From assembly GCA_040143965.1 (NCBI GenBank), contig JASJQH010006947.1:1-33702 (forward strand): a stretch of 33,702 nucleotides of DNA, given 5' to 3'. Made by a program: the position numbers and the translations under genes. Origin of the DNA: Basidiobolus ranarum. Lineage: Eukaryota. Shown piece by piece: positions 14,353 through 30,575 of this stretch (within the stretch, counting starts at the first letter, position 1; each line of letters begins with the position of its first letter). The notes under the pieces were generated by a model that did not search any database, was not told the origin of the DNA, and was given only the letters and a program-made list of their open reading frames with translations.

Positions 14353-16264
14353 AAACAATAGATTAAAGAAAGAGGATATTCAAAAAGTACCCTTGTCTAT
14401 CTAACGACTCTTCGTAAGTAAAGGAGAGGGATGGGGGGAAGGCGGTGATCACCAGAAAAGCAGAAGCAAGTTCAGTGCGATACAGATCCATCATGGCAAG
14501 ACTGGCCTTTATATACGACGCTCACTCTATCACCAATTAATTATTCAACACACATAAATAAGGAAAGGGAAAAAAAGAAGGAATGATCCAGAAAATACAT
14601 ATATAATTTATACAGATAGAATAGGATAGTTATGGATTTACTAGTGATTAATGATACTTTGAGGGTGAACCAATGAATAGGCGAGTCTAGTGCATGGTAC
14701 CAACCTCCAAGCAAAATTTATCTATGATGATTGTTGATACGCGCCTTGAAGATATGGATGCAGCTGCGGCTTTCATCATCTGATGATTACTCTTATTTAT
14801 GAAAGTTAACTTACAAGCATTCATCTAAGCATCTTCAGCGTCCAGAGCATTCAAACACATAAAGTCCAATTTCGTGATGATTCGCCGATTGTTGAATGTT
14901 TTCTTCAAAATCCAAGTTCAACAGCAGAAGCCTACTCGCTACACGATTGGATGAATTTATAGACAATTCATTTGTCAGACATTTCCTCGCTAGTTATAAG
15001 TTCGAATTGCGTCTCATTGGGCCTTACTTAGTAAGCTGCAGTCAAAGTTCCTAACCAAAGAAATAGCTTAACATTGTTTATTTCTGGATCAACCATATCA
15101 AGGCAGTACTAACCCTGTAGCCCTATGACATAATAATATTTGATTTAATCATCCGATTTAGCCCTTGCTTTGTCTGAAACTGAGCCACAGGCGATGGTGA
15201 TAGAAAAGATCGCACAATTTTGATTAAGCCGGTGTTTGTGTTGGGTAAGGGCTGGAAAGAAAGCCCCACACATATTGATTGAGAATCCTTTGAAGCTAAT
15301 ACAAGGGATGTTATTGGTGACGCAAACTGATTGAAGAGGTGAAAGTCTAGTCAGGTCATCGATAGTGTTCGGTATGCTAGTTGATTTCTCCTAGAGGCTC
15401 CTAAACATCCAATAACTCGGCCATTGCTCTTTTTCACATGAAAACAGTACACGTTTGCAACATCGTTTATCGCATGGATTTTTGGAAATCTAAGCCACTC
15501 ACCCCTTAGGATGGACCATGGATGACCCTAACCCTACATAAAGAAAAGCATTCCCTGTAGGTTGACTGCTTATATATATTCCATAACCCTGGCTGTAAGC
15601 AGGAATAAATTCAAACTCTACTCGCATACATTGACCCAAGCTTTCCCTAACCCTATATCCACTCCAGTGTTATCTCAGTAGTTAAAGGTGTTGAAACAAC
15701 CCCTTTATTATAAAATAGCATTATACCAATGGTGGGAATATCATCATAGAAGCAAGATCTATACGGTGTTATCTCAACATAAACTTATCACTAAAAGCTT
15801 GGTTAAAATGCTACCCAGACCTTGAATAAAGAAAGTCGGAAGATGCCAGGTAAGGACAGAAGTAAATCCATGGGATTCATGTAGTGAATGGATACTTGGA
15901 TTGATCTAGAAATCACAAACGAGCATGCACGCATACATATATAGTCTCATGATCTTAATTACGACAAATCTCAATCAATTGTCTCATGAATGAGGTAGTT
16001 CAAAATACCTTTTTTATTTTACCTTATTTAAGCATACTCGGCCTGGGCTGGTTACCAAAAAGGGGAGGGGATTGCACCGACGTAGATGCTATCCACTCAA
16101 ACGTAGTCAACTCTAGGGCTTAATTCACAACTGTAGCTGTAGTTCTATTATCTTTCTCACTTTCGTTACTTGCCATTTTTTAAATACTATTATTTCATAC
16201 TTATACAAATATTCACAACTACATACTCTTTACTCTACCACAAATAAGTAAACATCACTTCTCT

Positions 16265-18262
16265 ATGTCGCACATCCAATCCAATACGTACAGTCAGGGC
16301 TCTTCTATGCAAACAAACGATTCAAATGAAGACAGATACTATGGAAAGACACGCATCTCCGATTCTAGCAATGTATTCCAAAATGGTAAGGAAAATAGAA
16401 ATGGAAAGCGGACAGATAGCCGTTCCTCAACTCCAGTCTCTCGAGAAAACTCTTTCCAAAAGAACAGACCTACCCACAATGGTAGGGTAGGTCAAGGGTT
16501 TTCCAGTGACTCCCGCAAGAAAGGAAAGACTCAACAACCACATGCAGAGGTGGACTTCTCAAATAATTATGAAAGCTATAAGAAAGTAAAACCATCTGGA
16601 GAGTCATCAGCTCAAAATAGTCCTGTTATCACTAGAGTATCCAGTACAGAGTCTAATTCTGCCAACACTCTTGATAACAAAATTTCTGCTTGGCATTCGC
16701 TCGCACCCAGTGATGAAAATGGACATCGCTCAGTAGGTTCCGGACAGCTTCACAGGAGAGGGAAAAACTACAAGCCAGTAGGCGAGAGACGTATCATTGT
16801 TCAAAAAGAAACTCGGAATGCTAACAGAAAAAAACCCACATCTCAGCGTACAGGCACAGGCTATTCTACAAAGTCCTCTACTCCTGGGTTTGTTTGGCAA
16901 GAAGAACCCAATAAATCTGTACAAAAAGCACCAATTCCTTCAAAAGCTAAGAATTATATTGATACACAAAAAGTGGACGTCTCGACAGAGGAAGCCTCGA
17001 AAGCAACTGAGCTAAAACAAAGAGATCTCGCAGTTCCCAAAAGCAAAGGTGGAAAAACCTCAAGCATAGCAAGTACTAGTAAACTTCGAGTTGATTGTCC
17101 GGAATTTAAGCCTTCTCTGAATTTTGATTTTTCAAAGCTCAACTTCAATTCCAATAAGACTGCAACCGAGACTGTGAAATACAATCTATCAGCAAGTGGT
17201 GAGATTGACCAGAATAAAGAGCCGAGAATTGAAGGGAAAAGAAGTAGAAGTGACACGGGTTCTTCTACTCCTTCACAGGACTTATCTCATATATCTAATG
17301 ACATTACTACCCCATCAAGCACAGCAACGACACCAAAACTTTCTGGATTTAACCTGTCGTCTCGTTGGAATTTAAATGCTCCCGCTTTTGTTCCCAAAAG
17401 TGCATTTTCATTTGTTCCCTCAACCCCACCTACAATTGAGAGCAAAATTCCTACCGCCACAGCAACATCCACATCTAATGACTACACAATGACTGGCAAA
17501 AAAGACGAAGACTTCAAATACCAAAACCCGAGTGTCTTCCAATATCCTGAACAAACCGAATATCAATTCGAACCCACCTTCCATGCACAACCGGAAGCAT
17601 ATGACAGACATCTTTATACAGCTTCTGAGTTCACTTATCTGACATCCAACTACCAGGGATTGAACGAGTTAGATTATCCGGCTAATCAGGTGGAAGAGTT
17701 TCATTATACTGCCAACGAGGCGTCTAATGACACTGAATTTATCTATGACAGGGGATTCGAGGGTGAGGCAGTCTACCCGACTCCTGAAGAAGAATACGTC
17801 TATCCCTCAGACAAGAATGACTTCCAGTATAGCCATCAATATGAGGCAAGCCACTACTTACCGGCTGAGGTAGAGGTGAAACCACTATCACAAACGATAT
17901 TCAAGTTTTCAAAACCTGAAAGTAAGAAGGAAACATCTAATATTGAGCCTAAACCAGCTAGCTCTCGAGTAAATGGATCACCATCACAAACCAACTCCAG
18001 GTCCGGAAATAGGGATGAAGTTTCGACTGATAACAGTGGAGGCTTAAAAAATCAAGAGATCAAAGAATCAGAATCACTTGTTGTCGGAGTTGAGCTGAAG
18101 GATGGCTCCATTCAGCCAATCGAAATCTACCCTAACGATGATTTGGAAAGTAAAGCTCGCCAGTTTTGCACTCTTTGGGATATATCTGGTAGAAAAATAG
18201 TGCAGAGATTGGCATCTAGACTAGCTCAAGAACGAGAGAACCATCCTCTACGCATATCTTAA
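16265..18262 (+). CDS. Largely disordered 665-aa protein with two PAM2-like motifs and a small C-terminal PFU-like globular domain
   Basis: Long intronless ORF. SKLRVDCPEFKP (17078-17113) and SRWNLNAPAFVP (17360-17395) fit the PAM2 consensus SxLNxxAxEFxP. C-terminal VGVELKDGSIQPIEIYPNDDLESKARQFCTLWDI. Confidence 0.75.
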   Translation: MSHIQSNTYSQGSSMQTNDSNEDRYYGKTRISDSSNVFQNGKENRNGKRTDSRSSTPVSRENSFQKNRPTHNGRVGQGFSSDSRKKGKTQQPHAEVDFSNNYESYKKVKPSGESSAQNSPVITRVSSTESNSANTLDNKISAWHSLAPSDENGHRSVGSGQLHRRGKNYKPVGERRIIVQKETRNANRKKPTSQRTGTGYSTKSSTPGFVWQEEPNKSVQKAPIPSKAKNYIDTQKVDVSTEEASKATELKQRDLAVPKSKGGKTSSIASTSKLRVDCPEFKPSLNFDFSKLNFNSNKTATETVKYNLSASGEIDQNKEPRIEGKRSRSDTGSSTPSQDLSHISNDITTPSSTATTPKLSGFNLSSRWNLNAPAFVPKSAFSFVPSTPPTIESKIPTATATSTSNDYTMTGKKDEDFKYQNPSVFQYPEQTEYQFEPTFHAQPEAYDRHLYTASEFTYLTSNYQGLNELDYPANQVEEFHYTANEASNDTEFIYDRGFEGEAVYPTPEEEYVYPSDKNDFQYSHQYEASHYLPAEVEVKPLSQTIFKFSKPESKKETSNIEPKPASSRVNGSPSQTNSRSGNRDEVSTDNSGGLKNQEIKESESLVVGVELKDGSIQPIEIYPNDDLESKARQFCTLWDISGRKIVQRLASRLAQERENHPLRIS

Positions 18263-18545: not shown

Positions 18546-19802
18546 TTACTTCATGGACTCTGCTAAATGTCTGCTAATGATCAGACGTTGAATTTGGGAA
18601 GTTCCTTCATAGATTTGGAAGATTTTGGCATCACGCATTAATTTTTCGACCGGATATTCGGTATTGTATCCATTGCCACCAAATATTTGTACTGCGTCAG
18701 CAGCACACTTATTGGCTACTTCAGATGCAAGTGCTTTAGCAATACTTGCGTAATATGTATTACGTTGGCCCTGATCACGCATCCATCCGGCTCTCCAAAC
18801 CATCATACGAGAGGATTCAACACCCATGGCCATGTCTGCGAGCATGAAAGAGATTGCCTGATGTTGAATAATTGAGCGTCCCATAGTTTTGCGTTCCATC
18901 GAGTATTTCAAAGCTTCATCTAGAGCACGACGAGCAAGTCCGACAGCACCGGCAGCAACCAATGGACGAGTGATATCAAAAGCCCCCATGGCAATCTTGA
19001 ATCCCTTGCCAACCTCACCTAAACGATTTTCATCCGACACTTCAACATCTTCAAATGTGATACCACGGGTGTCACTAGCTCTTTGACCCATGTTGATTTC
19101 TTTACGACCAACGGAAATTCCTGGGGAATCAGCGTCTACAATGAATCCGGTGAAAGCATCACCAGCTCTGGCACTAGCATCAGTTTTAGCTAACACAAAG
19201 TACCAGTTGGCTTTTCCACCATTTGTGATCCACATCTTTTGACCATTAAGGATCCATTTATCTCCCTTCTTTTCAGCTTTGGTTTGGATACTAGCTACAT
19301 CAGATCCAGCGATAGGCTCAGTGACGCAATAAGCGGCCATTAAAGGCTCCTCAGACATTCTACCCAAGTATTTCTTCTTTTGCTCGTGGCTAGCAGCCAA
19401 GATGACAGGAGCTTCAGCAAGACCGTTGGCCTCCATAGCGGTTTGAATACCGGTACAACCATAAGCCAATTCTTCACTGACTATGGCACTATCCAAAACA
19501 CCCAAGCCCATACCTCCGTAATCTTGAGGAATGTGCAAGTTGACTAGACCAAGCTCCCAAGCTTTCTTGATGATCTCAGTTGGATATTCACCAGTCTGAT
19601 CATGATAAGCTGCCTTTGGAATGATCTCTTCTGCGGTGAATTTACGTGCTAATTCTTGAATGGATTGCTGGTCTTCAGTAAGTGCAAAGGCGGGACCTCC
19701 AACAGGAACTTCCGAGGACAAGTAACGGCGAGCAATGGTTGGTAGCAAACAAGATTGACGAGATAGAGTCTTGAGGGGATTAACGATGGTTTTCACGATC
19801 AT
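18546..19802 (-). CDS. ACADM: Mitochondrial medium-chain acyl-CoA dehydrogenase, 418 aa, intronless
   Basis: Arg/Ser-rich presequence. [74 protein letters not shown] (catalytic Glu in YEGT, MCAD type). Confidence 0.96.
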
Positions 19803-19992
19803 ATTGTTTATTAGAGTTATTATGGGTGAAGTGAGTGTGTACTACTAACAATAGTGTGAAAGGTCTATCGGGATGTGGTGAAGAGTGATGTGGTTAAATC
19901 AGTCAGGCAGGGTCTATAACTTTATACTATTGATGGGTTCAGGAGAGTCAGGAGGGTGTGACTAAGGATTGTTATGAAAAGGACGGAAGAAT

Positions 19993-21771: not shown

Positions 21772-23491
21772 CTAATCTTGTTTTGATTCAAAATCCATTA
21801 AAGCCTCCATATTGTAATGCTGCCTTAAGCTATTGATAATGGTATTTAGATTCTCGCCATTTAAGATATTGGTCATATCAAAGAGAGTTAAATTAATTCT
21901 ATGGTCAGTCACACGATCCTAGGGCATGAGGTATGATATTAGAGACTTATTGAGAGAAACGATTCATAAAGTATATATCACCTGTGGGAAATTGTAAGTT
22001 CGGATCTTTTCCGATCGTTCACCAGTGCCAATCTGAATTGAATTTAGTGAGAAAGTATTCAGCAAACTCAAAGATACATACGAATTTTACCTGTTTGTTT
22101 CTGGAGTCTCTTCGTGCTGTCTGTAACTTCATTCTTTCTTGTTCATAGAGTCTTGCACGCAGTACTTTAAGTGCTCTAGCTTTGTTCTGTGTTAAGGAAT
22201 ATCATTTAGTAAGATAGTCGCGAGAGTGTGACGCTCAAATATTACCTTATGTTGGGAACGCTCATCCTGCATTGCAACTACAATACCAGTTGGGATATGG
22301 GTGATTCTAACAGCACTGTCAGTAGTATTTACATGCTGACCGCCAGCACCACTAGAGCGATATAAATCTATACGCAAGTCACTCTCTCGGATCACAACAT
22401 CAACCTATTCATGAATAAAATCTTAGTAATTTTACTCCAATTTGCTAACATAAAATAAAATCTTGAATTACTTCTGTAGGTTGAGGCATAATGGCAACCG
22501 TAATAGTACTAGTGTGAACTCTTCCTTGACTTTCCGTAGCAGGAACTCTTTGTACTCTATGAACACCGGACTCAAATCGAAGTTTACCAAACACTCCACG
22601 ACCAACAATTTCTACGACCACATCTTTCACCCTATTGTTAGAGTCTTCTCCACCTGACATAACATCCACTTTCCATTTTTGTAATGCAGCATAACGTTGA
22701 TACATCTTCAAAACTTCATTAGCAAAAAGCGCTGCCTCGTCACCACCAGTACCCGCTCGAATTTCTAACATGGCACTACCTTCATCTGCCGAGTCTTTAG
22801 GCAGCAAAGATGATACCACCATTCCTTCCTTCTCCTTAATTATAGCCAAAACGGACTCACATTCTTCTTGAGCCATTTCTTGAAGGTCTGGATCTTCAGA
22901 ATTTAACATAACTTCAAGTTCTTTCAGTTCCTGAAAAGAAAAGTAAAATGAATGATTAGCCTAGTGCTTCACTCCCTCTCGAAAAAAATCACACTCTTAC
23001 GTTATGAGCCTGTTTGTATTCTTGGAAGGGTAAAACGACATCACCAAGTTCGCTTAATTCTTTTGAAATTTCCGTCATTTTCTCAGAACTAAGTTCCATC
23101 TAGTTGATAATACGTCAGAAAAAACCTGAAACCAAGTAACTATCGATTATTTACTAAAAAAACCCTTCGTAAAAAATATAACCTACATTTTCAGAAAGTT
23201 CCTTGACTAACTTAGAATGACGCTGTTCGGCAACGTTCAGGTTTTGAAGAATTTTTTCACTAATTACCGAACTTTGATATGTAGCAGCGGCTTATTAATA
23301 GTAAACGGTTAGCGTCATACGTTCTATTTTGGTGGAATAAATAAATGTTAAGCGCAAGTAAAAATAATACCATTTTGATATCTCGACAAGGAAAAGGAAC
23401 GAGTTATTGAAGTAAGCGGTTGGTATAGTTGGTTTATTACAGCTTCTCTGTATACTCTAGGAAGTATCGGACAGTATTTTAATAGTAACAT
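21772..23491 (-). CDS. MRF1: Mitochondrial peptide chain release factor 1, 411 aa; complement(join(21772..21918,21982..22032,22091..22186,22246..22404,22472..22930,23001..23099,23187..23290,23371..23491))
   Basis: Seven GT-AG introns give a continuous frame. Motifs [24 protein letters not shown] (PxT), [16 protein letters not shown] (GGQ) and [19 protein letters not shown], with an N-terminal presequence. Confidence 0.95.
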
Positions 23492-24031
23492 TATTTGTTC
23501 GAATAAACCTGTACACTAAGCCTCTTCGTTCTCGTCAAGTTTCGAGGAAATATTTTAAAATTTCGTTGGACCTCTAATAGACAAATTCCTGCTTTGACTT
23601 CATTCATAGTTGAAATTAGTAAAAATCATTCAAAATTTGCTTAATTAGCAATTTATAATCGTATTGTAAAGTATTTTCTAAATAACAGTAATTCTATGGA
23701 ATGACGACTTACCATACTTTACTAGGAATTCAATCTTCAATTTAAGCATAGCTAAATTGAATCCAAAAGAGATTAGAGAGATTGATTCTCGAAAACTTAA
23801 CGAAAGAGTGCTAGGAAATATTGAGTAAACTGAAGGGATAATCATCCTACTAATGTTAATCAAATAACTCCCTAGAAAACCATTCACGATTCAGCTCAAA
23901 AATGCATTATTAATCGACCACTCTAATTATCGCTTATCCCCTTTTTTTTTGTATATATAAGTATATATACATACTGAATAATGTTTCAGTATTGAAATTT
24001 TTGCAACACTTTGGTGTTTTCTTGTCTGGTA

Positions 24032-25086
24032 ATGCCTTCACAAACCAATGTTAACAATTTACGAAAATTATCGAATAGAAGTATCGTTGATAGAGTCTCA
24101 AATGGTCTTCGCCTCAGTGGAGATAATAAGGTCGATCTGTCCACAAGCTCTAAATCCGAGTTAGAATATATGTTGCGGAAGAATGAGGCTTTGCTTTCCA
24201 ACAAGTAATAACGTGAAATTTCTTAAATGTCATATAAACTTAGCTTACTGTGAATAACTCACCAACTTGTTTTGTACAACACTTGGTTGTGTTGGGGTTT
24301 CGTTGTGAATTTTTAAAAGGAGTTTAGTTGGTAATCTTAAAGATAAAGGAGAGAAACTTCGCTTGCAAAACGCGGAAATCAAACAACATTTAGCTGCCCT
24401 TATGGAAATCAATCAATTGGGTGACCAGTTAACTCAAATGGATCTTTCTACTGACACTCCTTCTGAAAGTACCAAAGAAAAGATTGATAGACAGACTGTT
24501 TCTCCAAAGACCCATGCTCTTCTTAACATGTCTTCTGTAAGTTCTGGCCATTCAATTGGATATTTGTATTAACTTGACTGACACAGTCTTTTCTTGATTT
24601 TGAAGTCAAAGCAAGGTCATACTGGTCTAGCCATTCCATTGTCACAAGAAGAATCTTTGAAACTATTGCAAAATCGTCGTCAAGAGTTGGAGGTAAACAA
24701 CCTCGATCTTATTGATAACGTTATAATAAGTAGAGATACTGACATCACTTTTAGGCTGCGGGTATCCAAAATGCTATCGAGAAACTTAAGTTCAGTTCAG
24801 GTAGTACTTCAAAGTCCGAGAAATACTCGTTCATCGATCAAAAGTATGCATCGTTTCTTGATTACTATTCCTCTTGGGATTTTAACTTATTATTACGAAC
24901 AGTTATCGAGATGAAGGTGCAGCTATGGATGAGAGTGAAGAGGAAAGTGATGATGACTCATACTGTAGCAATGATACCGACTCTACAGATGCTTGGCATG
25001 GTATATCTTTCACATTTACAAATGAGCTAACCCTAACCTTAAGATACTAATCGATTGCAATTGTAGAAGAAAATAGCGATGCATAG
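24032..25086 (+). CDS. POLR2M: Gdown1/GRINL1A-like protein (RNA polymerase II subunit M-like), about 227 aa; join(24032..24204,24320..24536,24606..24692,24755..24843,24903..25000,25067..25086)
   Basis: Spliced product contains DLSTSSKSELEYMLRKNEALLSNKSLVGNLKDKGEKL and PLSQEESLKLLQNRRQELEAAGIQNAIEKL...NYRDEG plus an acidic tail. These match, in order, the conserved N-terminal (LPDKG) and C-terminal (LSIEESL...YR, acidic end) blocks of animal Gdown1 as recalled. Acceptors of introns 1 and 2 have in-frame alternatives. Confidence 0.72.
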
Positions 25087-25426
25087 TTTGTATGGTTCAG
25101 TATGTAAAGTTCCTTTTTGAAATGGCCTCTGTTGATTTGTTTTTGAAAACCATCCAAAATCCAAAAAAGCAGTCACAGTATATTTAGACTCAAATAAATT
25201 TCAGTATTTTGTAAAATGAAGTATACTCTACCTGTATATATATATATATATTAGTAAGTGAAATTACACATTTTGAGTGAATCCACTTCTTCTGGTGATA
25301 CAGATTGAATGGAAATTTCAAATGTATTCCAGCACAATGGTGAGCATACATTGAATGCTATAATGAGTATTGGTTTAAAGATTGTCATGCTGATATATTA
25401 GCAGTTGTACCACTGAAATCACCTGG

Positions 25427-25992
25427 ATGGAAGAATCTCACTCCACTATTAGTCCGGACAACCATATTAAAGGACAACAAGAGCCTACCCAAACCAAACA
25501 TGACTCATTTCAAAGCGTAACCTGCAAAGCAAAATCAAGCAAGAAAAGCAGCTATTCCTCTCGAAAACAAAATCCAACTAAAGTAAATAAAGAAAAGTGT
25601 GGCCCCAAAAAGCCTAGGAGCGCATATATCATGTTTACCATCAACGAAAGGTATATAAGAGTTTTTGTTATCTGTGGTTTAATCTTTGAAATAATCACCT
25701 ATGCATTGAAGACCGCGACTCAGCGTAGAATATCCGAAGGCCTCGGCTACACGCTTGCTAAAATTACTTGGCGCAAAATGGAAAACGCTGTCTGATATAG
25801 AGAAAAAGGTACGCTATCATGGATACAGCAGCCAAAATTTTTTAGTAAATCTATGCTTTACTATAGCCCTACGATGATATGGCCCAACGAGATAAGCTGC
25901 GTTATGAAGCAGAAAAGAGGAGGCATCACTTGGGATGTTCCCCTGAGACTATCAACTTGTCTCAAGAGTTCTTATTTCAATCAGATTTATAG
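25427..25992 (+). CDS. HMG-box protein, HMGB/NHP6 class, about 148 aa; join(25427..25650,25712..25808,25867..25992)
   Basis: Spliced box GPKKPRSAYIMFTINERPRLSVEYPKASATRLLKLLGAKWKTLSDIEKKPYDDMAQRDKLRYEAEK. The start codon is uncertain (possible 5'-UTR intron at about 25340-25401). Confidence 0.85.
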
Positions 25993-26260
25993 GAAAATAG
26001 GAAAGAATTTGTTGGTGCGTAACATTCATCTTCTGTAAGTACCACATTGAACGGGCGCAAAATCAACTCTATACAGATGGTTATCATATTGTAAAAATAC
26101 AATATCCGCAGGATCAAAGAATATTTCTAATTTCATGTGTACGTGCCGCAGTATATAATTCAAAAGCTTTTAAAATAAAGTGATCATCTCAGTATGAGGA
26201 AAATTTCAAGAGTATATCAGCATAGAGTGATTGGCCACTCTTATGATTTTGCAGGCTTGG

Positions 26261-27230
26261 CAACTCCACGTGTACATCGTGGATGAACCCTATTCCCTTA
26301 ATTATATAAAACTGTCACTTTGCTTTTAATTTTGGAAAAGTATTACTTACCGTTTTAAAATGGGCCGTGAAAACATGAAGATTGGTACCTGCTGCTTTTG
26401 CATCAGTGTTCGAACTGCTACTTTGATTTTAGCCACTCTTGGGGCAGTATGTAGAGCTGATGATGTATTTTTACAACTAATTTGCTAATATAACGTTTAT
26501 CTTTTAAACATAGCTTGGTAATCTTCTTACTATCCTCACTTATGGCTTACAACCTGTCTATTCCTTCGGTTACACTCAGAATGTCATTTCCTACTTATTT
26601 TTCCTCATCTGTTGTGCTGGCGTTTATGGCGTTTGGAAAGAAAACATCCGCATGATCAGAACGTTCGTTGTATACTATTGGATGACTTTTACCATCAGCA
26701 TGATTTCTGTTGTTATGTTCAGTTTGACTGTTTTCCAAAGAGAAGATTCTGTTTGTGAGGAAGTGAGCAGCAACCCCGAATTTGAAATGGATATGGATAC
26801 CTGCTACCAATACTACTTCAAGATTGCTCTTGGCACTGTAATTGCATCTTGCATAAGCTTGGTTTTTAATGTAAGTGCAATGTTGGTTTAAACATTCTTT
26901 TATTTACTTCTCTGACTAAATTTCTATGTAGCTTTATTGTGGTATTGCTGTCTGGTCCTATTATCGCCAAATTTCTCTCCCAAGTGATTACACTAGTGTC
27001 CCTCAAGAAGAGTTGGGTAAAGGTGGCGAGAAGTGCTAAATTCTCAAAAGTATGGGCGTGTTTCTCGATGTAGTTTATTCCAAATTTTATTTTCCATAAA
27101 TGTATTACATGTTCAATAGGAACACGTACCACTTTTCTATATCAAATATATATCCTAACCAGAAGGAAGGTAAAGGAAAATAAACGATATCACCAATAAT
27201 TATTGATCTTGGTTTTGATGAAGTTTCTGT
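26261..27230 (+). repeat. Duplicated unit, copy 1 (promoter + four-TM gene A + 3' flank)
   Basis: CCACGTGT..ATC.TGGATGAACCCT.TTCCCTTAAT.ATATAAAACTGTCAC, both introns and the 3' flank are shared with 29606-30575. Confidence 0.85.
26360..27039 (+). CDS. Four-TM membrane protein A (tetraspanin/LAPTM-like topology), 183 aa; join(26360..26446,26514..26870,26932..27039)
   Basis: MGRENMKIGTCCFCISVRTATLILATLGA|LGNLL...; four hydrophobic segments, a loop with two Cys (SVCEE...DTCY), and tail VWSYYRQI...YTSV (YxxPhi). Two phase-0 GT-AG introns. Confidence 0.87.
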
Positions 27231-29605: not shown

Positions 29606-30575
29606 CAACCCCACGTGTGCATCATGGATGAACCCTGTTCCCTTAATCATATAAAACTGTCACCTCGCGATTAAATCTTGAAAAAATATTATCTACCGTG
29701 TTTTAAAATGGGTCGTGTTGGCATGATTAATACCTGCTGCTTTTGTATTCGTCTTCGAACTGCTGCTTTGCTTTTGGCCACTCTTGGGGCAGTATGTAGA
29801 GTTGATTATATATTGCACTATCATTTTACCGACTTAACTTTACATCTTCAAATATAGCTTGGTAACCTTCTTGCTACTCTCATCTATGGCTTGCAACCCG
29901 GCAATTCGGTCAAATACATCCAAAGTGGTATTTCCTTCTTATGTTTCCTCGCCTGTTGTGCTGGTATTTATGGTATCAGGAAAGAGAACATCCGAATGAT
30001 AAAGATGTTCGCTGTATACTATTGGATAAATTTTGCTCTTAGCATAATTTTTGTTGTCATATTTAGTTTGACTGTCTTCCAGTTGGAGGATTTCGTTTGC
30101 CAGGAATTGAGTAGCAACCCTGAGCTTGAAATGGACATGGATACCTGCTATCAATACTACTTCAAGATTGCTCTTGGCACTGTAATTGCAACTTGCATAA
30201 GCTTGGTTTTTAATGTAAGTGCCATGTTGGTTGAACCATTTTTTTATTTATTTTTCTGACTAAATGTCTATGTAGCTTTACTGCAGTATTGCTGTCTGGT
30301 CTTATTATCGCCAAATCTCTCCTCCAAGTGGTTACACTAGTGTCTCCCAAGAAGAGTTAGATGAAGATGTTGAAGCGAATTGAATTCTTTATAAATATGC
30401 GCATATTTATTAATACAGTTCAACCATTCCAAAGTTGGTTTCCCATCAATGTATTAGATGTTTAGTAGAAACGAATACCACTTTCTCTCTATCAAATATG
30501 TATCCTAACAAGAAGAAAAGCATAGAAAAGAATAAATGATATCGCCGGTAAGTATTAGCCTTAGTTTAGATGAAA
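29606..30575 (+). repeat. Duplicated unit, copy 2 (promoter + four-TM gene B + 3' flank)
   Basis: High nucleotide similarity to 26261-27230, including non-coding parts. Confidence 0.85.
29708..30383 (+). CDS. Four-TM membrane protein B, 182 aa; join(29708..29791,29858..30214,30276..30383)
   Basis: Close paralog of gene A with identical intron positions and exon 2 and 3 lengths (357 and 108 nt). MGRVGMINTCCFCIRLRTA...EMDMDTCYQYYFKIALG...VWSYYRQI...YTSV. Confidence 0.87.

What the first reader, a model, noticed from the sequence alone, without database searches (positions are those of the whole stretch)
24032..25086. Compact fungal Gdown1/POLR2M-like gene, a Pol II regulator normally called metazoan-specific
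Seen: six exons splice into a ~227-aa protein, while the ORF track shows only meaningless fragments. The N-block DLSTSSKSELEYMLRKNEALLSNKSLVGNLKDKGEKL lines up without gaps to human Gdown1 [37 protein letters not shown] (recalled). The C-block LSQEESLKLLQNRRQELE...AIEKL...YRDE plus acidic tail lines up to LSIEESLALQKQQKQ...LAERL...YREV plus acidic tail. Known: Gdown1 binds Pol II (Pol II(G)), competes with TFIIF, makes transcription Mediator-dependent and is absent from budding yeast. Inference: this is a minimal orthologue with a much shortened central region, implying Pol II(G)-type control predates the animal-fungal split. The LPDKG motif reads LKDKG here (24336-24350). Five spliceosomal introns among fungal-type genes argue against contamination. 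I cannot exclude that domain databases already list such fungal hits.
Basis: partly seen in the sequence, partly recalled or inferred. Interest (0 to 1): 0.85.

Follow-up and report, generated by a model that had tools for sequence, protein, structure and literature searches.

The report
Fungal Gdown1-like Pol II partner
A six-exon gene of the fungus Basidiobolus ranarum encodes a short but genuine relative of Gdown1, an RNA polymerase II-binding regulator that papers describe as animal-only, so this protein family is older than stated.

Summary
Exons 24032-24204, 24320-24536, 24606-24692, 24755-24843, 24903-25000 and 25067-25086 (+) splice into a 227-aa protein. It is letter-for-letter the NCBI record 'hypothetical protein K7432_002612' of Basidiobolus ranarum.

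Single-sequence evidence is weak: Pfam GCOM2 scores 13.4 bits against a cut-off of 27. Profile evidence is strong:
- A two-species Basidiobolus profile searched against 1.84 billion proteins found 13 hits at E<=1e-3. They include GRINL1A-like proteins of animals and unnamed proteins of four other fungal genera.
- A profile of seven named fungal proteins hit only human Gdown1 among 177,635 PDB sequences, at E 1.2e-12.
- hhalign of Basidiobolus against six named animal proteins gave 99% probability over residues 34-213.

The N block matches the human RPB10-binding region, and LKDKG stands where the human protein has LPDKG. The C block matches the protrusion-binding region, the YR motif and the acidic tail. 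The middle, external-binding region was not detected.

It most likely docks on Pol II by two anchors, but no binding, expression or structure test could be run. Four papers from 2020-2026 call Gdown1 metazoan-specific, and my searches found no paper reporting a fungal one. It is a new member of a known family, of moderate interest.

The parts
24032..24204 (+). Exon 1: ATG at 24032, residues 1-57 plus the first two bases of codon K58. An in-frame TGA lies 36 nt upstream of the ATG.
24205..24319 (+). Intron 1 (115 nt, GTAATA..AAG). If it is retained, the frame stops after 58 aa.
24320..24536 (+). Exon 2: last base of K58, then residues 59-130.
24134..24455 (+). N block, residues 35-103, interrupted by intron 1. 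It aligns without gaps to human Gdown1 residues 15-83, which cover the RPB10-binding region (residues 19-73).
   Evidence: region limits from PMC13443923, section 7
24336..24350 (+). LKDKG, the local form of the LPDKG motif. L64, D66 and G68 are invariant in 15 of 15 aligned family members.
24537..24605 (+). Intron 2 (69 nt, GTAAGT..AAG, CTGAC branch site).
24606..24692 (+). Exon 3: residues 131-159.
24633..24909 (+). C block, residues 140-191, interrupted by introns 3 and 4. It holds IPLSQEESL, a helix-like stretch and YR, and aligns to human residues about 302-354. That range covers the protrusion-binding region and the middle arginine of the cytoplasmic anchoring signal.
   Evidence: PMC13443923; PMC9728996
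24693..24754 (+). Intron 3 (62 nt, GTAAAC..TAG, CTGAC branch site).
24755..24843 (+). Exon 4: residues 160-188 plus two bases of N189.
24844..24902 (+). Intron 4 (59 nt, GTATGC..CAG).
24903..25000 (+). Exon 5: last base of N189, Y190-R191 (24904-24909), the acidic tail up to H221, and the first base of E222.
25001..25066 (+). Intron 5 (66 nt, GTATAT..TAG, CTAAC/CTAAT branch sites).
25067..25086 (+). Exon 6: end of E222 to A227, then stop TAG at 25084-25086. An AATAAA follows at 25193.

Best explanation
The locus is a real six-exon gene of Basidiobolus ranarum. It encodes a compact (227 aa) member of the Gdown1/GRINL1A (POLR2M) family.

Shown: homology to animal Gdown1 in two collinear blocks.

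Inferred: the protein is largely disordered on its own and docks on RNA polymerase II by two anchors.
- The N block (residues about 35-93, including L64-K-D-K-G68) would fold into the short helices that sit on RPB10 and touch RPB3 in the human complex.
- The C block (from about P141-L142 to about 185) would lie on the base and tip of the RPB2 protrusion.
- A conserved YR and an acidic tail follow.

Bound in this way it would occupy the sites used by TFIIB, the small TFIIF subunit and promoter DNA. Pol II carrying it would then be unable to initiate, and it could also hold the RPB3/RPB10/RPB11/RPB12 sub-assembly together during Pol II biogenesis, as proposed for the human protein.

The human middle anchor (external-binding region), NES1 and the S270 phosphosite lie in the part that is missing here. 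Release would therefore have to be controlled differently.
For: Gene model and independent orthologue:
- The gene model equals NCBI protein P0001.
- An orthologue of the same length exists in B. meristosporus on a 181,543-base contig: 72% identity, no indels.

Searches starting from the fungal side:
- The Basidiobolus profile against 1,835,955,588 proteins gave 13 hits at E<=1e-3. Of the 12 besides B. meristosporus, 4 are named animal proteins (3 of them 'DNA-directed RNA polymerase II subunit GRINL1A-like'), 4 are named fungal proteins and 4 are unnamed.
- 5 of those 12 pass Pfam GCOM2's cut-off, and 4 more have GCOM2 as their best or only sub-threshold hit.
- PDB searches: human GRINL1A is the only hit of 177,635 sequences in 4 of 4 searches. 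E-values were 0.067 for the single sequence, 1.9e-14 for A3, 1.2e-12 for the named-fungi profile A5 and 2.2e-36 for the mixed A2.
- hhalign of A1 against six named animal proteins: 99.0%, E 2.3e-18, residues 34-213.

Reverse test:
- A metazoan-only HMM scores P0001 at 68.4 bits and P0002 at 75.9 bits; the best of 1000 shuffles scores 10.5.
- The C half alone scores 24.1 and 32.0 bits. Without the acidic tail it scores 14.8 and 20.3 bits. 0 of 1000 shuffles reach these values.

Interface residues named in PMC13443923 section 7, mapped through:
- human L44 = L64 (L in 15 of 15 family members)
- human R30 = K50 (K or R in 12 of 15)
- human L304 = L142 (L, I or V in 15 of 15)
- human Y353-R354 = Y190-R191 (YR in 13 of 15)

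Other:
- ESM Atlas top feature hit scores 0.93, to a GCOM2 cluster.
Against: - Pfam GCOM2 is below threshold: 13.4 bits against 27, and no better than a Spectrin hit at 14.6 bits. 0 of 7 named fungal proteins reach the cut-off.
- With the named-fungi profile A5 the C block is not significant on its own (12.3 bits, i-E 0.98). hhalign of A5 against A4 aligns only the N block, 58 columns.
- The C half alone gave no usable ESM Atlas feature hit.
- Human R33 corresponds to A53, human L303 to P141, and the motif proline is K65.
- No counterpart of the human external-binding helix was found. Only about 34 residues link the two anchors.
- The Atlas's own model of the protein is poor (pTM 0.30, pLDDT 0.55).
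- Nothing here shows that the gene is expressed, that the protein binds Pol II, or that it affects transcription.
- Reciprocal best hit within the Basidiobolus proteome could not be run because no genome is held.
Confidence: 0.7

Rival explanations
1. It is a true homologue of Gdown1 but has been repurposed. Only the conserved N module still works, or the protein binds something other than assembled Pol II (for example only an RPB3/RPB10 assembly intermediate, or a chaperone such as URI1). In that case no Gdown1-bound, repressed polymerase form exists in this fungus.
For: - The middle anchor and the human regulatory sites (NES1 at 191-199, S270) have no counterpart (sites).
- The C block is much weaker than the N block: 19.9 against 53.6 bits.
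- It is not significant with the A5 profile.
- The human protein is proposed to act in assembly of the RPB3 sub-complex (PMC13443923 abstract and discussion).
Against: - Both anchors are kept between two Basidiobolus species: 51 of 69 identical in the N block and 36 of 52 in the C block, against 24 of 36 in the linker.
- The hydrophobic position equal to human L304 is kept in 15 of 15 family members.
- The C block beats 1000 of 1000 shuffles even without its acidic tail.
Confidence: 0.17
2. The N block is a TTF2-type LPDKG module rather than a Gdown1 one. On this reading the protein is a fragment or relative of the SNF2 termination factor TTF2, which shares the motif.
For: The JBC 2014 and NAR 2022 papers say that TTF2 shares a conserved LPDKG motif with Gdown1. 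A Pol II-TTF2 prediction overlaps the RPB10-binding domain (bioRxiv 2025.12.10.692585).
Against: - All 13 hits are 227-327 aa long. None of the 17 family proteins scanned shows an SNF2 or helicase domain.
- The C block, the YR motif and the acidic tail follow the layout aligned to human Gdown1.
- No TTF2 chain appeared at E<=10 in 4 of 4 PDB searches. I could not check whether the PDB copy holds a TTF2 chain with that region.
Confidence: 0.04
3. The gene is animal DNA, either contamination or a recent transfer from an animal host. Basidiobolus lives in amphibian and reptile guts (recalled, not from a call).
For: Basidiobolus scores higher against the metazoan HMM (68-76 bits) than the chytrid and Dimargaris proteins do (20-48 bits).
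Against: - A second species carries the gene on a 181,543-base contig.
- Relatives exist in Blastocladiomycota, Chytridiomycota and Kickxellomycota.
- In the tree the 7 named fungi plus one metagenome protein sit on one side of a branch with support 83/93, and the 5 named animals on the other. The data do not reject one fungal clade (AU p 0.375).
- The short spacer is shared by all the fungi: 73-111 residues against 116-214 in the animals.
- The neighbours are ordinary eukaryotic housekeeping genes in the same AT-rich, short-intron style.
Confidence: 0.03
4. The similarity is chance resemblance between helical, charged, low-complexity proteins.
For: Single-sequence scores are marginal: Pfam E 0.09, PDB E 0.067, Spectrin repeat E 0.047. 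The tail is 44% acidic.
Against: - Library-wide E-values down to 1e-5 for bona fide GCOM2 proteins among 1.84 billion.
- hhalign E 2.3e-18.
- 0 of 1000 composition-preserving shuffles come near the real scores for either half.
Confidence: 0.03

Closest known systems
Human GDOWN1 / POLR2M / GRINL1A (368 aa; PDB chains 28jc_M and 9t5h; Pol II-RPAP2-GDOWN1 cryo-EM, PMC13443923)
   Same: - An N-terminal block aligns without gaps to human residues 15-83, the RPB10-binding region with the L-x-D-K-G turn.
- A C-terminal block aligns to human residues about 297-365: the protrusion-binding region, a YR that equals the human Y353-R354 of the cytoplasmic anchoring signal, and an acidic tail containing a Trp.
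- The blocks come in the same order.
   Different: - 227 against 368 aa, with 74 against 256 residues between the motif G and the start of the C block.
- No detectable external-binding region (human 224-255), NES1 (191-199) or S270 site.
- The motif reads LKDKG instead of LPDKG.
- Human R33 and L303 are not kept.
- Only 1 of the 3 anchoring-signal arginines is kept.
Pfam PF15328 (GCOM2, 'Putative GRINL1B complex locus protein 2')
   Same: It is one of the two top Pfam hits for P0001 and the top hit for P0002, aligned at the start of the model (profile positions 1-72).
   Different: - The score is 13.4 bits against the curated 27, so by Pfam's rule this protein is not a member. That is why the public record is a 'hypothetical protein' with no domain.
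- Matches to the model cover its first 39-135 of 214 positions in every protein scanned, and none of them reached the C block.
Unnamed fungal proteins of Paraphysoderma sedebokerense, Polychytrium aggregatum, Entophlyctis helioformis, Dimargaris verticillata and D. xerosporica
   Same: They share the two-block layout and a short spacer of 73-111 residues. All are annotated as hypothetical or uncharacterized.
   Different: - They keep the proline in the motif (LPDKG, LPDRG, LPDQG, LPDGG).
- They have longer N-terminal leaders.
- Dimargaris lacks the YR motif (WS in its place).
TTF2 (SNF2-family Pol II termination factor carrying an LPDKG motif)
   Same: It shares the short motif that in Gdown1 contacts the RPB10 site (papers).
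   Different: The protein here has no ATPase domain, is a fifth of the size (TTF2's size is recalled), and has a Gdown1-type C block.

Membership tests
Gdown1/GRINL1A protein family (homology) | Statistically significant sequence relationship to bona fide animal Gdown1 | tested here: met
   - Basidiobolus profile to animal GRINL1A-like proteins: E 1e-5 to 4.8e-4 in 1.84 billion.
- Named-fungi profile to human Gdown1: E 1.2e-12, the only hit of 177,635.
- hhalign: 99.0%.
- Metazoan HMM: 68.4 bits against a shuffle maximum of 10.5.
Gdown1/GRINL1A protein family (homology) | Conserved N-terminal domain with the LPDKG motif (JBC 2014, PMC4007455) | tested here: met
   Residues 35-103 align without gaps to human 15-83. 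The motif reads LKDKG. L, D and G are invariant in 15 of 15 members, and the P position also varies in named animals: LKDKG in Diadema, LADKG in Frankliniella and Neocloeon.
Gdown1/GRINL1A protein family (homology) | Conserved C-terminal domain (protrusion-binding region, human 290-344) downstream of the N domain | tested here: met
   - i-E 3.8e-4 with profile A3.
- 24.1 bits for the C half, 0 of 1000 shuffles as high.
- Collinear in hhalign.
- Against: i-E 0.98 with profile A5, and not aligned in A5 against A4.
Gdown1/GRINL1A protein family (homology) | Middle external-binding region (human 224-255) contacting RPB2 external domains and RPB12 | tested here: inconclusive
   No aligned helix was found. 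Only P120 lines up with the proline that ends the human region. The whole linker is about 34 residues. This feature may be specific to animals.
Gdown1/GRINL1A protein family (homology) | C-terminal YR within the cytoplasmic anchoring signal, plus an acidic tail | tested here: met
   Y190-R191 correspond to human Y353-R354. YR is present in 13 of 15 members. The tail is 36 aa and 44% acidic.
Gdown1/GRINL1A protein family (function) | Tight, salt-resistant binding to Pol II; competition with TFIIF/TFIIB; inhibition relieved by Mediator | not testable with these tools
A bench test is needed.
Gdown1/GRINL1A protein family (orthology) | Reciprocal best hit within the host proteome | not testable with these tools
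   No genome is held for this window. The forward direction is met: human Gdown1 is the only PDB hit, and GRINL1A-like proteins are the only named non-fungal hits.
Pfam PF15328 GCOM2 (curated membership) | Whole-protein score at or above the gathering cut-off of 27 bits | tested here: not met
   13.4 bits, E 0.09, for both P0001 and P0002. This is a limit of the model's sensitivity. It is why I file the protein under the Gdown1 family by profile evidence and not as a Pfam-defined GCOM2 member.

The most novel reading that the evidence does not exclude
Early-diverging fungi have their own Pol II(G)-like state. This would be a pool of RNA polymerase II held unable to initiate by a two-anchor Gdown1, used for assembly and import control or for global shut-down in resting stages. 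If so:
- the RPB10 anchor plus the protrusion anchor would be the minimal working core of Gdown1;
- the animal middle anchor, NES1 and S270 switch would be later additions;
- the factor would date from before the animal-fungal split and would have been lost in the lineage leading to yeasts.
Probability: 0.35. Interest if true: 0.75.

Novelty: new member of a known kind. Interest (0 to 1): 0.55.

Why it matters
Four papers that I read in passages call Gdown1/POLR2M metazoan-specific or metazoan-restricted: PMC7704258 (2020), PMC8887472 (2022), bioRxiv 2025.12.10.692585 and PMC13443923 (2026). A 2013 review says yeast and worms lack it.

Here the same two-block protein turns up in named fungi of four phyla: Basidiobolomycota, Blastocladiomycota, Chytridiomycota and Kickxellomycota. 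There is also a lead in Mucoromycota. This moves the origin of the family to before the animal-fungal split.

That fits the recent view of Gdown1 as a Pol II assembly and import factor working with RPAP2 and GPN1/3. Those partners have yeast homologues, Rtr1 and Npa3/Gpn3.

The fungal proteins also act as a natural deletion series. They keep the RPB10 and protrusion anchors and drop about 180 residues of the centre, which points to what the core of the protein is. They could also allow genetics in simple organisms.

Limits: this is comparative sequence evidence only, and domain databases already carry a few fungal GCOM2 hits.

Tried and rejected
- **Pfam, exon by exon:** 0 families for 5 of 5 exon translations at E<=10. 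The pieces are too short, so this says nothing.
- **The genome search 'own' with PF15328:** no genome is held for this window.
- **Third word-index protein search, with the fungal alignment A3:** only the 8000 candidates sharing most words were scored. It returned 5 proteins, 1 of them new (Dimargaris xerosporica). It gives no usable picture of the distribution, and in particular nothing on Dikarya.
- **ESM Atlas with the C half only (residues 120-227):** no usable feature hit. Structure rows were all below TM 0.5 and unrelated. The structure rows were likewise uninformative.
- **Metagenome loci:** A1 gave 114 pattern matches, of which 0 were confirmed by tblastn.
- **RNA features:** 0 Rfam matches, 0 tRNA genes and 0 tandem repeats in or near the gene, so no intron-borne RNA gene was detected.
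- **Complex prediction:** not attempted, because no Pol II subunit of a eukaryote could be obtained.
- **Papers not held:** PMC3259526 and PMC6298426. Supplementary files were not consulted; alignments in the supplements of the structure papers might show wider sampling.
- **Considered and rejected:** generic coiled coil or Spectrin-like protein, a TTF2 fragment, and animal contamination (see the rival explanations).
Full report
**1. What is in the sequence**

Between 23996 and 25050 the + strand carries only open fragments of 70, 87, 110, 91 and 54 aa. Joining 24032-24204, 24320-24536, 24606-24692, 24755-24843, 24903-25000 and 25067-25086 gives a 684-nt reading frame of 227 codons, ending in TAG at 25084-25086. 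In one search I had placed the last exon 10 bases off after misreading the ruler.

- All 5 introns start with GT and end with AG. They are 115, 69, 62, 59 and 66 nt long, with 0.31-0.33 GC against 0.39 in the exons.
- 3 of 5 introns have a strict CTRAY branch site 12-36 nt before the acceptor.
- An in-frame TGA lies 36 nt upstream of the ATG, and an AATAAA lies at 25193.
- Retaining intron 1 stops the frame after 58 aa. Introns 3 and 4 are not multiples of three.

**2. Whose gene it is**

- The spliced product is identical to a public record, 'hypothetical protein K7432_002612 [Basidiobolus ranarum]'. Its longest contig, 33,702 bases, is the length of this window. No Pfam domain is precomputed for it.
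- Basidiobolus meristosporus has a 227-aa counterpart on a 181,543-base contig. It is 72% identical and aligns without a single gap.
- Two separately deposited records agreeing on length and on every junction is the best junction evidence I could get.
- Homology also supports junction 1. Codon K58 is split by it and sits in LLSNKSLV; LSNKSLV recurs in the thrips GRINL1A record P0003.
- B. ranarum belongs to the phylum Basidiobolomycota.

**3. Is it related to Gdown1?**

Single-sequence tests are marginal.
- Exon pieces hit nothing in Pfam.
- The whole protein gets GCOM2 (PF15328) at 13.4 bits, E 0.09, against a cut-off of 27. A Spectrin repeat scores 14.6 bits beside it.
- phmmer against 177,635 PDB sequences returns one sequence, human 'DNA-directed RNA polymerase II subunit GRINL1A' (28jc_M, also 9t5h), at E 0.067. 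Residues 35-103 align without gaps to human 15-83, and a faint second stretch aligns 142-206 to human 304-359.
- The word-index search finds one protein outside the genus, a thrips GRINL1A, at E 0.31. Its pairwise BLASTP E-value is 9e-07 for the N block.
- The ESM Atlas's best feature hit (0.93) is a GCOM2 cluster.

Profile tests are decisive.
- A profile of the two Basidiobolus proteins, scored against all 1,835,955,588 representatives, gave 13 proteins at E<=1e-3. Besides B. meristosporus these are:
  - named fungi: Paraphysoderma sedebokerense (1.3e-06), Polychytrium aggregatum (1.6e-06), Entophlyctis helioformis (3.7e-04) and Dimargaris verticillata (6.7e-04);
  - named animals: Owenia fusiformis (1e-05) and the 'GRINL1A-like' proteins of Acanthaster planci, Diadema antillarum and Neocloeon triangulifer (1.4e-04 to 4.8e-04);
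  - four proteins from unnamed sources.
- Of these 12, 5 pass Pfam GCOM2's cut-off, 4 more have it as their best or only sub-threshold family, and 3 show no GCOM2.
- A profile of seven proteins, six from named fungi plus one metagenome protein (A3), hits only human Gdown1 in the PDB at E 1.9e-14. There are two stretches: the N block at i-E 6e-09 and the C block at i-E 3.8e-4.
- With seven strictly named fungal proteins (A5) the hit stays unique at E 1.2e-12. The C block then drops to 12.3 bits, i-E 0.98.
- hhalign of the Basidiobolus pair against six named animal proteins gives 99.0% and E 2.3e-18 over residues 34-213, through both blocks. A5 against the same animals gives 98.5%, but over the N block only.
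- In the reverse direction, an HMM of seven named animal proteins scores P0001 at 68.4 bits and P0002 at 75.9 bits. The best of 1000 shuffles scores 10.5.
- The C half alone scores 24.1 and 32.0 bits, and still 14.8 and 20.3 without the acidic tail. 0 of 1000 shuffles reach these values.
- The animal proteins in that HMM were chosen from the hits, so they are the animal members nearest to Basidiobolus.

**4. Anatomy against the solved human complex**

Section 7 of PMC13443923 describes three Pol II-binding parts of human GDOWN1:
- an RPB10-binding region (residues 19-73; three helices and the LPDKG motif; R30, R33 and L44 at the interface);
- an external-binding region (224-255);
- a protrusion-binding region (290-344, with L303 and L304).

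Through the alignments and the family alignment, the mapping is:
- The N block covers the first region whole.
- Human L44 is L64 here (L in 15 of 15). D66 and G68 are also invariant.
- R30 is K50. R33 is A53. The motif proline is K65, giving LKDKG at 24336-24350. Diadema (LKDKG), Frankliniella and Neocloeon (LADKG) also lack that proline.
- The C block covers the third region. L304 is L142 (L, I or V in 15 of 15) and L303 is P141.
- The nearly invariant YR (Y190-R191) equals human Y353-R354. That is the middle of the cytoplasmic anchoring signal R352/R354/R357 defined in PMC9728996.
- A 36-residue tail, 44% acidic, follows.

I found no counterpart of the external-binding helix. The human NES1 (191-199) and S270 also lie in the part that is absent here.

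The distance from the motif G to the start of the C block is 74 residues here, 73-111 in the five other fungal or fungus-like rows measured, 116-214 in the animal rows, and 256 in human. Compactness is therefore a fungal trait, not a peculiarity of this gene.

**5. Descent**

A maximum-likelihood tree was built from 16 rows, using 227 of 633 columns.
- The tree puts the 7 named fungi plus one metagenome protein on one side of a branch. The 5 named animals plus three unnamed proteins sit on the other. Support is 83/93.
- An AU test does not reject the 7 named fungi as one clade (p 0.375).
- Many end branches are long, so this is consistent with vertical descent but does not prove it.

The named fungi belong to Basidiobolomycota, Blastocladiomycota, Chytridiomycota (two orders) and Kickxellomycota. 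An Atlas cluster of 82 members, commonest phylum Mucoromycota, scored 0.89, and 11% of its members carry PF15328. That is a lead only. No named Dikarya protein is among the 13 hits, but only hits at E<=1e-3 were listed, so loss in Dikarya is not shown here.

**6. Surroundings**

- Upstream on the minus strand lies a peptide-chain release factor: PCRF domain at 22445-22960 and RF-1 domain at 22192-22404.
- Downstream on the plus strand lie exon pieces of an HMG-box gene at 25394-25877.
- Further genes are ordinary: acyl-CoA dehydrogenase, a cyclin, an F-box/LRR protein and tetraspanin-like ORFs.
- No Rfam family or tRNA was found in the window, and no tandem repeat in 23000-26000.
- Nothing in the neighbourhood bears on function.

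**7. How it most likely works**

Shown: homology in two collinear blocks to the two ends of Gdown1 that grip Pol II.

Inferred: the protein binds Pol II at RPB10/RPB3 with its N block and at the RPB2 protrusion with its C block. It would thereby cover the places used by the TFIIB cyclin domains, the TFIIF-beta linker and promoter DNA (section 9 of PMC13443923). The bound polymerase could then not initiate. Alternatively or in addition, it could stabilise the RPB3/RPB10/RPB11/RPB12 sub-assembly during biogenesis (abstract and discussion of the same paper).

About 34 residues join the two anchors. Whether they can span the distance on the enzyme is open. Without S270 and NES1, release and export would need other signals. 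I give about 0.95 to homology and about 0.6-0.7 to two-anchor binding of Pol II.

**8. Known or new**

- Passages in PMC7704258, PMC8887472, bioRxiv 2025.12.10.692585 and PMC13443923 call the protein metazoan-specific or metazoan-restricted.
- PMC3852498 says orthologues are absent from yeast and worms.
- PMC4007455 aligned species 'from insects to primates'.
- Full-text searches found no title or abstract start on a fungal Gdown1. I opened 4 of the listed papers and found no such passage. The searches were:
  - Gdown1 with fungi or fungal (4 and 5 papers);
  - POLR2M or GRINL1A with 'fung' (9 and 4 papers);
  - PF15328/GCOM2/IPR026213 (8 papers);
  - LPDKG (4 papers);
  - the family names since 2022 (129 papers, 30 listed).
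- Most subscription papers and all supplements were out of reach.
- Domain databases seem to hold a few fungal GCOM2 hits.

This is therefore a new, compact member of a known family in a kingdom where the literature says the family does not occur.

**9. What could not be done**

No host genome is held. No Pol II subunit could be brought in for a complex prediction. Expression, binding and effect on transcription remain untested.

Noticed in passing
window 25394-25877 (+): Two overlapping-frame ORF pieces just downstream look like a split HMG-box gene. The second piece matches Pfam HMG_box at 21.7 bits, below the 25.4 cut-off because it is only an exon fragment. The first piece ends in a PKKPRSAYIMF-type start of the box. 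The gene model was not worked out.
   Followed up: partly
window 22192-22960 (-), perhaps up to about 23290: The upstream neighbour on the opposite strand is a peptide-chain release factor (PCRF domain 183 bits, RF-1 domain 89.7 bits), split by short introns. About 740 bases separate its likely start from the Gdown1-like ATG, so the two genes diverge from a shared intergenic region.
   Followed up: partly
window 26514-26891 (+) and 29858-30259 (+): Two ORFs about 3 kb apart both give weak Tetraspanin matches (23.4 and 20.2 bits, below the 32.1 cut-off). They may be exons of tandem paralogues.
   Followed up: no
window 16184-18262 (+): An uninterrupted 692-aa open frame, the longest in the window, has no Pfam family at E<=0.001.
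   Followed up: no
window 18546-19841 (-): An acyl-CoA dehydrogenase (all three domains) reads as a single 431-aa open frame with no intron. Its intron-rich neighbours are different in this respect.
   Followed up: no
proteins P0004, P0005, P0013, P0015, P0030 (other fungi), alignment A2: In all fungal relatives measured (Paraphysoderma, Polychytrium, Entophlyctis, D. verticillata), the spacer between the two conserved blocks is short: 73-111 residues, against 116-214 in the animal rows. D. verticillata has WS where the others have the near-invariant YR (D. xerosporica P0030 was not in A2).
   Followed up: partly
protein P0011 (JGI/IMG metagenome; 291 aa; 4-member cluster): An Asn/Asp-rich relative of unknown origin groups with the fungi in the tree. 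It scores higher against the animal HMM (55.8 bits) than the named chytrids do. Its organism is unknown, and I did not try to trace it.
   Followed up: no
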